Shown here in pieces: positions 12,790 to 27,886 of a stretch of 27,886 bases of DNA (the first letter of the stretch is position 1; each line of letters begins with the position of its first letter). The stretch is taken from positions 1 to 27,886 of the forward strand of contig JAYPIC010000019.1 of NCBI GenBank assembly GCA_038127595.1, written 5' to 3'. This DNA comes from a bacterium. GTDB taxonomy: Bacteria > Fidelibacterota > Marinisomatia > Marinisomatales > UBA1611. The translations under genes were made by a program, and so were the position numbers. Under the pieces are notes generated by a model that made no database searches, was not told the DNA's origin, and was given only the letters and a program-made list of their open reading frames with translations.

Positions 12790-14436
<1,647 letters not shown>

Positions 14437-14446
14437 TTATAACTCC

Positions 14447-14737
14447 TTACATTACTGCGAGAATATCACTCTCGCGCATGATTATGTAGTCAGTACCAGC
14501 AACATTAACTTCGGTGCCGGAATACTTACCATATAAAATTTTATCACCTTCTTTAACAGACATTTCAATTAATGCCCCAGAATCACTTACTTTACCTGGT
14601 CCGACAGCAACAACAGTTCCTTGCTGTGGTTTTTCTTGAGCAGTGTCTGGTAAGATTATACCACCAGATGATTTTTCTTCCGCAGCAGCTGCTTCAATTA
14701 CAACTCTGTCAGATAATGGTTTTAAACTTAAACCCAT
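14447..14737 (-). CDS. groES: Co-chaperonin GroES
   Basis: Motifs [40 protein letters not shown] and RESDILA. AAGGAG SD at 14746-14751. Confidence 0.99.
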
Positions 14738-14941: not shown

Positions 14942-15379
14942 TTATTTTCCTGTGCTACCAAATCCACCTGTACCTCTAGATGAATCTGACAAGCTATCGC
15001 TAATGTCAAATCGAATAGATGAACCATCCATAGCAACAATTTGAAATAGCCTCTGCCCAATCTCAACTTTGTAAGGTATATCTTTAATATTGTCAACCGC
15101 AGCCATTATTTCACCTCTATAACCAGCGTCTATCAATCCAACAGCATTAGCTAAACGTAGTGGTGTTTTTGAAATGCTTGAGCGGGGCATTAAAAAATAT
15201 GAAATCCCATCAAGATTTTCACAAGATATCCCAAGTTTAATTCGAACTGTTTCTTTAGGATTTATTATTTGGTCCTCAACAATATAAAGATCCAACCCAG
15301 AATCTCCCTGATGAAAATGACTGTGATTTTCATACATTTTTCTTACAACTTCGTTGACTGGCTTTATTTTAAGATTCAT
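14942..15379 (-). CDS. dut: Trimeric dUTP diphosphatase
   Basis: All five motifs present: GDSGLDL, PRSS, GLIDAGYRGEI, RLFQIV and RGTGGFGSTG. Confidence 0.96.
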   Translation of the reverse strand: MNLKIKPVNEVVRKMYENHSHFHQGDSGLDLYIVEDQIINPKETVRIKLGISCENLDGISYFLMPRSSISKTPLRLANAVGLIDAGYRGEIMAAVDNIKDIPYKVEIGQRLFQIVAMDGSSIRFDISDSLSDSSRGTGGFGSTGK

Positions 15380-16679
15380 ATTTATTTTCTTTCTTTAATA
15401 CGTAAAATAATCCCAAACTAATTATCATCAAACATATTCCAACAGTTGATTCTATTGGTTGTATAGTGAATGTATAAAAAAGTACCCATAAATTTAGAAT
15501 TACGAATATAATGGGAGTATATGGATACCCCCACGTCTTGTAAGGTCTTTTAAGGTCTGGTTCTATATTTCGTAAATATAAAAGAGAGCAAACAGTAATA
15601 GTAGTCGTAATAATTAGTATAATCCCCGTGTATAGAACTACCTGCTCAAATGTTGAAGTCAATATAAAAATTAAACTTATGACAAGCTGAGCTATAAAAG
15701 CATTAAATGGGATACCATTCTTATTTGTTTTTGATAAAAATGATAACTGATCATAATCTTTGCCCATTGCTTGAATAATTCTAGGTCCTACATAGATGTA
15801 GCTGCTAACAGTTGAGAGCAATAATAGCCCAATTAATAGTGATATATAGACTGCATATTCAGCTCCAAATAAACTTAATCCTGAAATGTAACCTACCTCA
15901 ATTTCACCTTTCAAATCACTGATTGGGGACACAATGAGAAATACATAATTTAAAAGTAGGTATAAAAATGTGACCACGGTTGTGCCAATCAAGATTGATC
16001 TGAAAATATTTTTGCCTGGTTTCTGAATTTCTCCGACAACATATATACTAGAATTCCAACCTGCATATGCATATGAAACCCATACAAGATTAACAGCAAA
16101 CTCTGGGCTGAACAATATATCCAAATCGGATAAATTTGGAAGAAATGAAATATTCTGCTTATCAAAAGAAAAAATACCAGCAAAAATAAATAAGAACATT
16201 ACAAAAAGTTTAAATGATGTAGACCAAGTCTGAAAAAATTTTCCGAATCTAAGACTGAATGCATGAATGGCGTTTATAGCCAATATAACAATGATTGCAA
16301 AAAAATTTTCATTGATGATCGGGAAAACTGGTTTCAAATAATTTGCCAATGCAATTGCTGCTATAACCGCAGGTGCAGAAAAACCAACTGTTGCGGATAC
16401 TATGCCAGCAGATAAACCAATTGAAGGGTGCAAGATTCGAGAGAGCAAATGATACTCGCCACCTGACTTAGGTAATGCTGCCCCTAATTCACTGTAACAC
16501 AACGCACCAAATAAAGAAATAACTCCGCCAGTGAGCCATAACATTAAAATTGAAAATCCAGATTGAATATCATTTAATTGATATCCGAGACTAGTAAAAA
16601 CACCTGTCCCAATCATACTTGAAACAACAAGAGACATGGCTGCAAATAAACTTAAATGCCTTTGACTAACACCTTTCAA
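15369..16679 (-). CDS. Amino acid permease (APC superfamily, LAT-like)
   Basis: TTG start. Motifs SMIGTGVF, YSELGAALPKSGGEY, SYAYAGWN, GEIQKP and RPYKTWGYP. Overlaps dut by 11 nt. Confidence 0.92.
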   Translation of the reverse strand: MKGVSQRHLSLFAAMSLVVSSMIGTGVFTSLGYQLNDIQSGFSILMLWLTGGVISLFGALCYSELGAALPKSGGEYHLLSRILHPSIGLSAGIVSATVGFSAPAVIAAIALANYLKPVFPIINENFFAIIVILAINAIHAFSLRFGKFFQTWSTSFKLFVMFLFIFAGIFSFDKQNISFLPNLSDLDILFSPEFAVNLVWVSYAYAGWNSSIYVVGEIQKPGKNIFRSILIGTTVVTFLYLLLNYVFLIVSPISDLKGEIEVGYISGLSLFGAEYAVYISLLIGLLLLSTVSSYIYVGPRIIQAMGKDYDQLSFLSKTNKNGIPFNAFIAQLVISLIFILTSTFEQVVLYTGIILIITTTITVCSLLYLRNIEPDLKRPYKTWGYPYTPIIFVILNLWVLFYTFTIQPIESTVGICLMIISLGLFYVLKKENKYES

Positions 16680-22820: not shown

Positions 22821-23462
22821 TTAAAATTCTGTTACAGGATTAAAAAACTTTGTCCCAGAAACAGGTTGACGAATGTAATCTATGACCTCTTTTAAATCAT
22901 TCTCATTTTCAACAAAGTCTATATTATTCGTATTTATAATAACCAGTGGTGTATCTTGGTACCTAAAAAAGTATTCCGTATAAACTTGATTTAGAGCATC
23001 AATATATTCCCAGGTAACATTCTTTTCCATATTTCGACCACGCTTTTCGATGTTTTTCATCAGCACATCAGTATCGGCTTGAAGATAAATAACAATATCA
23101 GGCCTTATAATATTTCGCTCTAATAAACTAGCGACAGTATCATAGAGCTGCATTTCTTTATCACCTAAATTAAGAGAGGCAAATAAACGGTCTTTGACAA
23201 ACATGTAATCAGTTATTAAAAGTTTTTGAAACATATCTACCTGCCGAAGATCTTGCTGCTGCCTGTACCTTTGCAGAAGAAAAAATAACTGTGTTTGGAA
23301 ACCAAATCTTTCAGGATCATTATAAAAATCTGGTAGAAATGGATTATCTTCAAAGTCCTCTAAAACTAATCTTGCACCCAATTCTTTAGATAATAATTGA
23401 GCTAAGCTGGTTTTTCCAACGCCAATAGGACCCTCTATGGCTATGTAGTATAAATTTCTCAT
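22821..23462 (-). CDS. Deoxynucleoside kinase (dNK family)
   Basis: P-loop IAIEGPIGVGKTSLA, plus NPFLPDFY, FQTQLFFL..RY, PDIVIYLQAD and lid RGR..E. Confidence 0.92.
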   Translation of the reverse strand: MRNLYYIAIEGPIGVGKTSLAQLLSKELGARLVLEDFEDNPFLPDFYNDPERFGFQTQLFFLLQRYRQQQDLRQVDMFQKLLITDYMFVKDRLFASLNLGDKEMQLYDTVASLLERNIIRPDIVIYLQADTDVLMKNIEKRGRNMEKNVTWEYIDALNQVYTEYFFRYQDTPLVIINTNNIDFVENENDLKEVIDYIRQPVSGTKFFNPVTEF

Positions 23463-23968
23463 GCTTTATTTTCTAATTCATATAATCTGACCATTGATCT
23501 ATCAGCACATCGTCCAAGAAGTTCATTAACGGTCAAATTTATATGTGGTATCTTAAAATCAGTAGCAATCTCATCAAATGGAATTAATACAAATTTTCTA
23601 TTTATTAAACCAGGATGTGGGATTATCAATTCTTTTGTTTCCATAATAGCGGAACCATGAACAAGAATATCAATATCAATAGTTCTTGGCATATTTTTTT
23701 CAATAGATTTTTTACGACCTAACATACGTTCAATATCCTGAATATGATCTAAAAACTCAAATGGCTTTAAGTATGTATCCAGCCCCACAACGGTGTTAAT
23801 AAAAAACTCTTGATTTTGGTTGTATAGTGGCTCAGTAAGATAAAAAGATGCAGAATCTAAATTATAATTTTTTTCAGAAACTTCAAGAGCTGATATTGCT
23901 TGAGCAATATTTGATTCTCTATCTCCAATATTCGAGCCAATAGATAAATATACTCTGCTACTCTTCAT
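23459..23968 (-). CDS. folK: 2-amino-4-hydroxy-6-hydroxymethyldihydropteridine diphosphokinase
   Basis: Motifs YLSIGSNIGDR, PRTIDIDIL, IPHP and RKFVLIP. Confidence 0.95.
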   Translation of the reverse strand: MKSSRVYLSIGSNIGDRESNIAQAISALEVSEKNYNLDSASFYLTEPLYNQNQEFFINTVVGLDTYLKPFEFLDHIQDIERMLGRKKSIEKNMPRTIDIDILVHGSAIMETKELIIPHPGLINRKFVLIPFDEIATDFKIPHINLTVNELLGRCADRSMVRLYELENKA

Positions 23969-24324
23969 TTTTTTACTCTAGTCAGCTCAACCTCTACATT
24001 TTTAAAATCAGCTTTAATAGGCGCATGCGGTTTTCGAACTCGTATTACTACTTTTTCAATTTGAAACTCCTTTAACAATCTTCTACAGACTGACTCAGCA
24101 ACAGCTTCAACTAACTTATAACGCTTTTTAGTAAACTCTTCAATTGTGAAAGAAATTATTTCCTGATAGTCCAGCGTATCTCCAAGACGATCAGATATTC
24201 CTGCTCCCTTTAAATTGCAGAACAGTTCTAAATCAATTTCGAATATACCATCTTTCGATTTTTCAAAATCATATACCCCGTGCCTAGCTGGGATTTTTAA
24301 ATCATTAATACGTATACTGTCCAT
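23965..24324 (-). CDS. folB: Dihydroneopterin aldolase
   Basis: Motifs HGVYDFE, SD.L.DTLDY, LVEAVAE and VRKPHAP. ATGA overlap with folK. Confidence 0.93.
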   Translation of the reverse strand: MDSIRINDLKIPARHGVYDFEKSKDGIFEIDLELFCNLKGAGISDRLGDTLDYQEIISFTIEEFTKKRYKLVEAVAESVCRRLLKEFQIEKVVIRVRKPHAPIKADFKNVEVELTRVKK

Positions 24325-27014: not shown

Positions 27015-27886
27015 CTAAACGGGATCAACCCAATCGCCGTTGTCCTTGATAAGTCTAATTAATGCATTTACAGCTTCAGCTGCTGGTATATTACTTTTTA
27101 CGACCTCTTGACCTTTATACAGAGAGATTTTACCTACGCCGGTCCCCACATAACCATAATCAGCATCTGCCATTTCTCCTGGACCGTTTACAATACAACC
27201 CATAATTCCAATCTTAACTCCTTTTAAGTGATCTGTTACAGATCGTATTTCATTTGTGGTTGATTGTAAATCAAATAAAGTTCTACCACAAGAAGGGCAG
27301 GAGATATATTCAGTTTTTGATATTCGCAATCTAGAAGCTTGTAAAATTCCAAAAGATGTTTGATTGGATAAACCTTGGCCTATATCTGACCTCAAACTCA
27401 ATCCATCAATTAGCCCATCAATTAGTAATGAGCTTAAATCAGTAGAAGAATCTAATTGAAATTCTGATGATGGAATATTCGCATAGTCTTTTTGAATGAT
27501 TATTGGAGTTCTGAGACCACTCAAAATTATATCAGTAATAAAATCACGGTGTGACATTATGGTATATTTATCGTCATAATCTAAAATTATAACCACTGTT
27601 TTATCAGTTTGTAATATGTGTATCAAATCTGGTTGAAGTTGTTTTTCTTTAACGTGAATAAAATTCAAAGTTTTTGATTTTGATATATTATCATTGTACT
27701 CATCAATACTAAATATTGGAAAAGAAGAAGAATTGTCTACCCAAACTGAATGATTTTGAATAGCCATTAAAAGTCCCGGTAATTCAAAATTTATTTGATT
27801 ATTGCCTATGTATACATAATCAACAGCCTGATCAGATATATGCCATTTATCTTCTTCAACAGAATATAAGTATCCTAAAGGAGCTA
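27015..27886 (-). CDS. ispG: (E)-4-hydroxy-3-methylbut-2-enyl-diphosphate synthase, long three-domain form; 5' end lies outside the window
   Basis: Fe-S motifs YISCPSCGRTLFDLQ and IMGCIVNGPGEMADADYGYVG. The frame stays open from the listed Met (27767) to the window end (APLGYLYSVEEDKWHISDQAVDYVYIG...). Confidence 0.95.
   Translation of the reverse strand, partial: APLGYLYSVEEDKWHISDQAVDYVYIGNNQINFELPGLLMAIQNHSVWVDNSSSFPIFSIDEYNDNISKSKTLNFIHVKEKQLQPDLIHILQTDKTVVIILDYDDKYTIMSHRDFITDIILSGLRTPIIIQKDYANIPSSEFQLDSSTDLSSLLIDGLIDGLSLRSDIGQGLSNQTSFGILQASRLRISKTEYISCPSCGRTLFDLQSTTNEIRSVTDHLKGVKIGIMGCIVNGPGEMADADYGYVGTGVGKISLYKGQEVVKSNIPAAEAVNALIRLIKDNGDWVDPV

What the first reader, a model, noticed from the sequence alone, without database searches (positions are those of the whole stretch)
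14942..15379. dUTPase resembles the Plasmodium/alveolate type rather than typical bacterial Dut
Seen: MNLKIKPVNEVVRKMYENHSHFHQGDSGLDLYIVED...KLGI...PRSSISKTPLRLANAVGLIDAGYRGEIMAAVDN. From memory, P. falciparum dUTPase reads MHLKI...EVREMYKNHKTHHEGDSGLDLFIVKD...KLGI...PRSSISKTPLRLANSIGLIDAGYRGEIIAALDN. Typical bacterial Dut has LP.Y.T.GSAG.DL and PRSGL instead. The gene overlaps its bacterial neighbour by 11 nt and ends a core operon, which argues against contamination. Inference: cross-domain transfer among this lineage, alveolates and/or large algal or protist DNA viruses, displacing the ancestral dut. The direction is unknown.
Basis: partly seen in the sequence, partly recalled or inferred. 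Interest (0 to 1): 0.75.

Follow-up and report, generated by a model that had tools for sequence, protein, structure and literature searches.

The report
Malaria-type dUTPase in marine bacteria
This marine bacterium's only detected dUTPase, a DNA-precursor cleaning enzyme, belongs with the unusual malaria-parasite type rather than the standard bacterial one, is shared by many genomes of its phylum and by viruses, and was likely gained in an ancient gene transfer whose direction is unresolved.

Summary
Observation confirmed. The 145-aa Dut scores 153 bits against Plasmodium falciparum dUTPase; the next solved structure scores 68. It is the genome's only detected dUTPase. It is no recent or private transfer: 82 of 151 sampled genomes of the phylum (Marinisomatota) carry this type, mostly just upstream of groE(S)L, as do 15 of 251 Verrucomicrobiota. 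Named eukaryotic carriers are Myzozoa (apicomplexans, chromerids, Perkinsus, Oxyrrhis), and giant viruses and some phage-like contigs carry it too. Its model matches the 'non-classical', unswapped C-terminal fold described for Plasmodium and ASFV (0.8–1.2 Å on the best-fitting Plasmodium chains, about 9–13 Å on most classical enzymes), while a canonical control behaves oppositely. Trees separate the subfamily from canonical Dut (97–98% bootstrap) and give separate bacterial and myzozoan clades, neither nested in the other. Bacteria-plus-Myzozoa grouping is weak (82/88, 68/50, absent under LG+G4; AU p=0.37). Cross-domain transfer is likely; direction and 'displacement' are unproven. Verdict: a new, widespread bacterial branch of a known structural class, with ordinary function.

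The parts
14942..15379 (-). dut: trimeric-type dUTPase of the Plasmodium-like ('non-classical') subfamily, 145 aa
15329..15352 (-). Residues 10-17, predicted N-terminal helix; absent from the canonical control model. The segment from residue 3 to D26 is 23 aa in 61 of 63 bacterial and 18 of 18 eukaryotic rows, against 19-20 aa in 79 of 81 canonical rows
15287..15307 (-). Motif I (GDSGLDL, 25-31)
   Evidence: motif numbering from general knowledge of trimeric dUTPases
15170..15187 (-). Motif II variant (PRSSIS, 65-70; canonical rows have RSGL)
15113..15139 (-). Motif III (GLIDAGYRG, 81-89) with D84 and Y87, invariant in alignment A1
15023..15055 (-). Motif IV (QRLFQIV, 109-115) and the four following residues AMDG (116-119), three of four from the 'non-classical' library of Liang et al.
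15002..15013 (-). Residues 123-126, strand predicted to pair within its own subunit (no such strand in the canonical control model)
14951..14977 (-). Motif V (RGTGGFGST, 135-143)
15369..16679 (-). Upstream APC-family amino-acid transporter gene, overlapping the dut start by 11 nt
12790..14737 (-). groES-groEL directly downstream; this dut-groE(S)L order is conserved in relatives across classes (names from sequence recognition, not from a family scan)

Best explanation
The gene is this bacterium's only detected dUTPase and belongs to the Plasmodium-like subfamily; it is predicted to fold its C-terminal strand back into its own subunit, likely hydrolyses dUTP to dUMP and pyrophosphate as a homotrimer, and likely entered an early Marinisomatota ancestor once, from a virus-rich pool of such genes. 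Function (inferred from intact motifs I-V and family knowledge): it keeps uracil out of DNA and supplies dUMP to ThyX, the only thymidylate synthase found in the genome. Architecture (predicted): active sites built from two subunits, as solved for ASFV dUTPase, instead of three. History (inferred): one old acquisition, then vertical inheritance next to groE(S)L through several classes; later bacterium-to-bacterium transfers into Opitutales- and Kiritimatiellae-type Verrucomicrobiota; the myzozoan ancestor separately acquired a close relative from the same pool.
For: Sole PF00692 match, no dimeric dUTPase, no Dcd over cut-off, ThyX present, ThyA not found, three UDG matches in a 95.8% complete genome. 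This type in 39 of 41 order-level genomes and 82 of 151 phylum genomes: own class 54 of 55, families f23 22/24, f26 3/3, f28 3/4. groES/groEL adjacent in 22 of 26 own-class loci and groEL in 7 of 12 loci from other classes, several misses at contig ends; 0 of 15 Verrucomicrobiota loci. Bacterial rows form one clade: 93/88, 95/90, 99/94; Verrucomicrobiota rows nest inside Marinisomatota rows in at least three places (92/92). Model pLDDT 90.7, no templates: top 18 Foldseek hits are P. falciparum chains (0.8 and 1.2 Å on two, 2.6-6.0 Å on the rest), then ASFV (3.4-4.3 Å); most classical enzymes 8.6-13.1 Å. A canonical Dut from the same phylum put through the same pipeline fits classical enzymes at 0.9-3.3 Å and lists no Plasmodium chain among the ranks shown (to rank 50). 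Viral breadth: at least 119 IMG/VR motif hits, 48 named GVMAG; BFVD best hits are Satyrvirus, Mimivirus AB-566-O17, Catovirus, Tupanvirus, CeV-01B, abalone asfa-like virus; one copy lies beside an NCLDV major capsid gene (L463); three lie on phage-like contigs with PhoH or transglycosylase genes and one beside a ribonucleotide reductase (L447). In the rooted PMSF tree the first splits in the subfamily are viral or unassigned rows.
Against: The viral-donor step is weak: the basal viral splits have 81/76 or less, and fast viral branches may be drawn to the outgroup. No viral row is a supported sister of the bacterial clade; 2-3 unassigned metagenomic rows lie inside it. Both PMSF trees put bacteria next to Myzozoa (82/88 with five unassigned rows and one virus inside; 68/50), and a myzozoan profile scores bacteria above viruses (best 226 vs 198 bits, median 207 vs 115), which favours a direct link. 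None of 606 tblastn-matched records among 50,697 GenBank phages was of this type among the 30 shown (best 78 bits). Only 145 columns. No activity assay, no trimer prediction (tool unavailable). Two classical chains with short resolved tails (2xy3_D 3.9 Å, 3h6x_B 4.4 Å) also give low rmsd. No species tree was built, so vertical inheritance rests on synteny and monophyly.
Confidence: 0.5

Rival explanations
1. Same enzyme, but a direct cell-to-cell link: the ancestor of Myzozoa took its dUTPase from a bacterium of, or sister to, the Marinisomatota lineage (for example from prey), and viruses drew their copies from cells.
For: After myzozoan-like rows, all 27 of the 145-aa hits in the top 120 of a myzozoan profile search have bacterial best matches. 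Bacteria and Myzozoa share the 23-aa N-terminal segment, H19, H23, G25 and a small-residue post-motif-IV turn, whereas most sampled viruses have xPxL there. Both PMSF trees group them; AU p=0.37 does not reject the clade. Two Cryptosporidium records are named 'deoxyuridinetriphosphatase bacterial origin' by their source.
Against: Myzozoa do not nest inside sampled bacteria (bacterial clade 95/90, 99/94). LG+G4 tree does not group them. Slow rates alone raise mutual scores. Some NCLDV-like and phage-like copies also have the AFDG/AFNG turn, so that character is not exclusive.
Confidence: 0.3
2. Transfer from an early myzozoan protist, or from a virus that had just taken the gene from one, into the Marinisomatota ancestor.
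For: Same similarity evidence as above; AU test cannot reject even bacteria plus Plasmodium as a clade (p=0.158); long viral rows fall inside the myzozoan clade (L153, L466).
Against: Bacteria do not nest in Myzozoa (98/93, 85/93, 87/99); the gene is shared by several bacterial classes at one locus, which suggests great age (not dated here).
Confidence: 0.08
3. No transfer between domains: an ancient paralogue kept by Marinisomatota and Myzozoa and lost elsewhere.
For: Separate monophyletic groups; canonical and non-classical types never seen together as clear Dut genes in one sampled Marinisomatota genome.
Against: 53-59% identity across domains; 86 of 90 named titles in the GTDB motif sample belong to two phyla, so very many losses would be needed.
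Confidence: 0.07
4. Artefact or ordinary gene: a misbinned eukaryotic or viral contig, or an ordinary bacterial Dut resembling Plasmodium by chance.
For: Such misbinning does occur for this family: L208 in a 'Sediminibacterium' bin lies beside an Rpb3/Rpb11-type RNA polymerase gene.
Against: Bacterial neighbours, conserved synteny, matching GC3, presence in 39 of 41 relatives; AU rejects grouping with canonical bacterial Dut (p=0.022).
Confidence: 0.02

Closest known systems
Plasmodium falciparum dUTPase (PDB 1VYQ, 2Y8C, 3T64), 'non-classical' trimeric dUTPase
   Same: Best sequence and structure match; N-terminal helix region, PRSSISKTPLRLAN motif II region, small-residue turn after motif IV, predicted unswapped C-terminal strand.
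   Different: Lacks the roughly 25-residue Plasmodium insertion between motifs I and II. The two residues that PMC6889535 names as the trityl-inhibitor pocket (Phe46, Ile117) align to Arg46 and Met92, so inhibitor sensitivity cannot be assumed. Bacterial, chromosomal.
African swine fever virus E165R dUTPase (PDB 6LJ3, 6KY8), two-subunit active site (Liang et al., PMC7948977)
   Same: Next-best fold match after Plasmodium over the full length (3.4-4.3 Å); post-motif-IV AMDG vs AQGD.
   Different: Only 27-29% identity and 55 bits; not included in my trees.
Myzozoan dUTPases (Besnoitia, Cystoisospora, Eimeria, Cyclospora, Cryptosporidium, Polyplicarium, Chromera, Alphamonas, Colpodella, Perkinsus, Oxyrrhis)
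   Same: 52-56% identity; same subfamily in all trees.
   Different: Form their own clade; carry a variable insertion before motif II.
Canonical bacterial Dut (TIGR00576, E. coli type)
   Same: PF00692 fold, motifs I-V, presumed reaction.
   Different: Below NCBIfam cut-offs; 27-42% identity; RSGL motif II, no N-terminal helix, swapped C-terminal arm; separate clade (98/97, 97/95).

Membership tests
Trimeric dUTPase (PF00692) | Profile match above curated cut-off | tested here: met
   64.3 bits vs cut-off 22
Trimeric dUTPase (PF00692) | Five conserved motifs with motif III Asp/Tyr, motif II Arg-Ser, motif IV Gln, motif V Gly-rich loop | tested here: met
   D26, R66, S67, D84, Y87, Q113, R135, G141, S142 invariant in 63 rows; motif definitions from general knowledge
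Trimeric dUTPase (PF00692) | Homotrimer assembly | not testable with these tools
Trimeric dUTPase (PF00692) | Mg-dependent dUTP hydrolysis | not testable with these tools
   Needs an assay
Non-classical dUTPase (Plasmodium/ASFV; PMC7948977) | Four residues after motif IV drawn from Ala, Asp, Gly, Ser, Thr | tested here: met
   AMDG, 3 of 4; mean 2.84 of 4 in 64 bacterial rows, 2.61 in 18 eukaryotic rows, 0.24 in 82 canonical rows; viral rows intermediate, 1.5-1.8
Non-classical dUTPase (Plasmodium/ASFV; PMC7948977) | Groups with Plasmodium apart from classical enzymes in a tree | tested here: met
   98/97 and 97/95, using P. fragile, P. yoelii, P. gallinaceum; P. falciparum and ASFV were not in the trees
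Non-classical dUTPase (Plasmodium/ASFV; PMC7948977) | C-terminal strand not swapped (folds into own subunit) | tested here: met
   By prediction only: monomer model with strand 123-126, close fit to Plasmodium chains, poor full-length fit to classical chains; canonical control shows the reverse
Non-classical dUTPase (Plasmodium/ASFV; PMC7948977) | Two-subunit active site closed by the subunit's own motif V | not testable with these tools
   Residues 131-145 have pLDDT 74 then 52; needs a liganded structure
Canonical bacterial Dut (TIGR00576 / PRK00601) | Score above curated cut-off | tested here: not met
   92 vs 102.55; 93.1 vs 103
Canonical bacterial Dut (TIGR00576 / PRK00601) | One clade with canonical bacterial Dut | tested here: not met
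   AU p=0.022 against eight canonical Marinisomatota and Verrucomicrobiota rows
dCTP deaminase (TIGR02274) | Score above curated cut-off | tested here: not met
   28.6 vs 92.8

The most novel reading that the evidence does not exclude
The dUTPase of Plasmodium and other Myzozoa, an antimalarial target, is a gene taken by the myzozoan ancestor from the marine bacterial lineage Marinisomatota or its sister, and these bacteria are the cellular home of the unswapped 'non-classical' dUTPase class that giant viruses, ASFV-like viruses and some phages also carry.
Probability: 0.25. Interest if true: 0.7.

Novelty: new member of a known kind. Interest (0 to 1): 0.45.

Why it matters
The 'non-classical' dUTPase was defined from two solved enzymes, Plasmodium and ASFV (PMC7948977). 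This shows it as a broad subfamily that is the resident dUTPase of over half the sampled genomes of an abundant marine phylum, of named Verrucomicrobiota isolates (Pelagicoccus, Pontiella, DG1235), of Myzozoa from Oxyrrhis to Plasmodium, and of many viruses. It gives candidate relatives for the 'bacterial origin' label on Cryptosporidium records, harmless bacterial models for studying the unswapped fold, and a testable question on the origin of a parasite drug target. The chemistry is ordinary, and dUTPase genes are known to move often (NCLDV dUTPases are polyphyletic, PMC3493329), which caps the surprise.

Tried and rejected
Contamination or recent transfer: rejected. Plasmodium-specific ancestry: not favoured; no tree shows it, though AU has too little power to reject it (p=0.158). 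Co-existing canonical, dimeric or Dcd-type enzyme in this genome: none found. GenBank phage collection: no close member among the 30 of 606 rows shown. Trimer prediction: tool unavailable. VIA-align comparison: machine busy three times. Search for contigs of unnamed proteins inside the myzozoan clade: one unrelated GVMAG locus, nothing in metagenomes; 20 cluster look-ups of candidates named few, so 46 of 109 and 25 of 87 tree rows stay outside the named groups or unassigned. Of 22 metagenome motif hits, several were non-Dut chance matches. Intergenic hairpin downstream of dut: not better than shuffles (z=-0.28); no terminator found, four promoter-like sites vs 1.8 expected; no Rfam match in the window. 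Protein atlas added only dUTPase clusters of mixed bacterial and viral make-up. Earlier scan findings: none. Literature: ten searches found no paper on this type in Marinisomatota or Verrucomicrobiota.

Full report
Observation. The ORF at 14942-15379 on the minus strand encodes 145 residues with all five trimeric-dUTPase motifs. Against the PDB it scores 152.8 bits with P. falciparum dUTPase and 68 bits with the next entry, and it falls below both NCBIfam dut cut-offs. The 11-nt overlap with the upstream APC transporter gene is real, and GC3 matches the neighbours.

Host and genome. The window is contig C19 of G000 (95.8% complete). Relatives of the protein are named Candidatus Marinimicrobia, and 64 of 119 GTDB motif hits carry Marinimicrobia, Neomarinimicrobiota or Fidelibacterota titles, so I read the phylum as Marinisomatota. 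The gene is the only PF00692 match; no dimeric dUTPase, no Dcd above cut-off and no ThyA were found, while ThyX and three UDG matches were. This is the setting of a housekeeping dUTPase that feeds dUMP to ThyX; the activity itself is inferred.

Distribution in bacteria. 39 of 41 genomes of the family and order have it; the two misses are 63-64% complete. Of 151 phylum genomes, 82 carry this type at 56-100% identity (own class 54 of 55; f23 22/24, f26 3/3, f28 3/4), 26 give only weak matches (f25 21/23 and f30 2/2, canonical by sequence; f29 3/6) and 43 give none with this query. One genome of this type, G144, has a second weak match in a 181-aa frame that I did not examine. groES/groEL lie next to the gene in 22 of 26 own-class loci and groEL in 7 of 12 loci from other classes. 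In Verrucomicrobiota 15 of 251 genomes have it at 58-67%, each as the single match and without that synteny; 117 give weaker matches and 119 none.

Eukaryotes and viruses. Named eukaryotic carriers are Plasmodium, Besnoitia, Cystoisospora, Eimeria, Cyclospora, Cryptosporidium, Polyplicarium, Chromera, Alphamonas, Colpodella, Perkinsus and Oxyrrhis, all Myzozoa by general knowledge, plus one pika-assembly protein that groups with coccidia (100/93). No ciliate was named; ciliate Dut was not tested. At least 119 IMG/VR contigs carry the motif II pattern, 48 of them named GVMAG; named giant viruses lead the BFVD fold search; one metagenomic copy adjoins an NCLDV capsid gene; others lie on phage-like contigs. 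Because viral and GTDB loci were picked by the motif, its conservation in them is by construction; the genome-wide searches were not motif-selected.

Structure. Liang et al. (PMC7948977; I read passages, section 5 and the text of supplement 1, not the figures) define 'non-classical' dUTPases from ASFV and P. falciparum: no C-terminal strand swap, a two-subunit active site, and four small residues after motif IV. The window has AMDG there; bacterial rows average 2.84 of 4 such residues, eukaryotic 2.61, canonical 0.24, viral 1.5-1.8. A template-free model (pLDDT 90.7) has an N-terminal helix and an intramolecular strand 123-126; its 18 best PDB matches are P. falciparum chains, then ASFV, and most classical enzymes fit only at 8.6-13.1 Å. 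A canonical Dut of the same phylum, modelled the same way, lacks both elements and fits classical enzymes at 0.9-3.3 Å. The unswapped fold is thus predicted with a control; trimer and active-site make-up are untested. The trityl-pocket residues Phe46 and Ile117 (PMC6889535, passages) align to Arg46 and Met92.

Phylogeny. Of 830 matching rows, 678 passed length and redundancy filters (two possible animal-virus loci, 118 near-identical metagenomic relatives and long tandem proteins were left out) and 425 remained after 80% dereplication for FastTree. I hand-picked 109 rows with outgroup and 87 without for IQ-TREE, 145 columns each. The subfamily separates from canonical Dut at 98/97 (LG+G4) and 97/95 (PMSF); joining the bacterial rows to canonical bacterial Dut is rejected (p=0.022). 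Bacterial rows form a clade (93/88, 95/90, 99/94) with 2-3 unassigned rows, and Verrucomicrobiota nest among Marinisomatota. Myzozoa form a clade (98/93, 85/93, 87/99) with unassigned rows and, in two trees, one long viral row. Neither nests in the other. Bacteria and Myzozoa group at 82/88 with five unassigned rows and at 68/50, but not under LG+G4, where the forced clade is neither rejected nor shown (p=0.37). A myzozoan profile ranks bacteria above viruses, while the window protein scores equally with its best virus and best myzozoan (169 vs 168 bits). The bootstrap had not settled.

Reading. Shown: identity, sole copy, wide and syntenic distribution, membership by sequence and tree in the Plasmodium-like subfamily. 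Predicted: unswapped fold. Inferred: dUTPase activity, one old gain in Marinisomatota, later spread to Verrucomicrobiota, at least one cross-domain transfer. I put separate captures from a virus-rich pool at about 0.5, a direct bacterium-to-myzozoan transfer at 0.3, the reverse at 0.08, and differential loss at 0.07. Displacement of an ancestral Dut is plausible in Verrucomicrobiota, where most hits are canonical, and unproven in Marinisomatota.

Prior knowledge. The structural class is known (PMC7948977; PMC6819664, passages), NCLDV dUTPases are reported as polyphyletic (PMC3493329, passages), and two Cryptosporidium records already say 'bacterial origin'. Ten searches found no paper placing this type in these bacteria; passages of PMC6001144, PMC13558084, PMC2938197, PMC4108317, PMC12524310 and bioRxiv 10.64898/2026.09.23.753693 were not informative. 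The library lacks most subscription papers, the original P. falciparum structure paper was not read, and the eight species that Liang et al. classify in Figs 2E and S2 are not named in the text I could see, so a bacterial member may already be in print there.

Verdict. A real and correctly spotted likeness: a new, widespread bacterial branch of a known dUTPase class, ordinary in function, with an open and testable origin. Interest 0.45.

Noticed in passing
P0304 (XP_058515672.1): A dUTPase named from the pika Ochotona princeps groups with Besnoitia and Cystoisospora (100/93) on a 31.6-kb contig; probably a coccidian parasite in the host assembly.
   Followed up: partly
L208:358-2752: A contig in a 'Sediminibacterium' bin carries this dUTPase type next to an Rpb3/Rpb11-type RNA polymerase gene and branches among viruses; probably a misbinned giant-virus contig. 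That genome has three PF00692 matches.
   Followed up: partly
L180:2100-2534: A 1.0-Mb genome titled Flavobacteriaceae has the mscS-dut-groES-groEL order and a Dut inside the Marinisomatota clade; the title is probably wrong.
   Followed up: partly
families f22, f24, f27 of the window's phylum: 33 sampled genomes gave no hit with this protein, at most weak Dcd-length PF00692 matches, and no dimeric dUTPase match: possible dUTPase-less lineages (draft genomes, not shown absent).
   Followed up: no
L485-L488 (families f29, f31): A third, divergent Dut type (about 157-163 aa, 27-30% identity to the window protein) in the same phylum.
   Followed up: no
P0122, P0403-P0406: Tandem two-domain versions (335-348 aa) of the myzozoan-type dUTPase, one from an MMETSP transcript; other tandem forms occur among unnamed representatives such as P0145, P0147, P0165.
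   Followed up: no
L471, L474: In two family-f23 genomes dut lies only 209-242 nt upstream of groEL with no room for groES.
   Followed up: no
L447:1289-5236: Phage-like contig with this dUTPase type overlapping a ribonucleotide reductase gene and near an RNase H-like exonuclease.
   Followed up: partly
window 22821-24324: folB-folK-like genes followed by a deoxynucleoside-kinase-like gene on the same strand upstream of smc (names from sequence recognition; the kinase scored below the dTMP kinase cut-off).
   Followed up: no
window 27015-27767: ORF resembling the C-terminal part of IspG at the contig end (recognised from sequence, not scanned).
   Followed up: no
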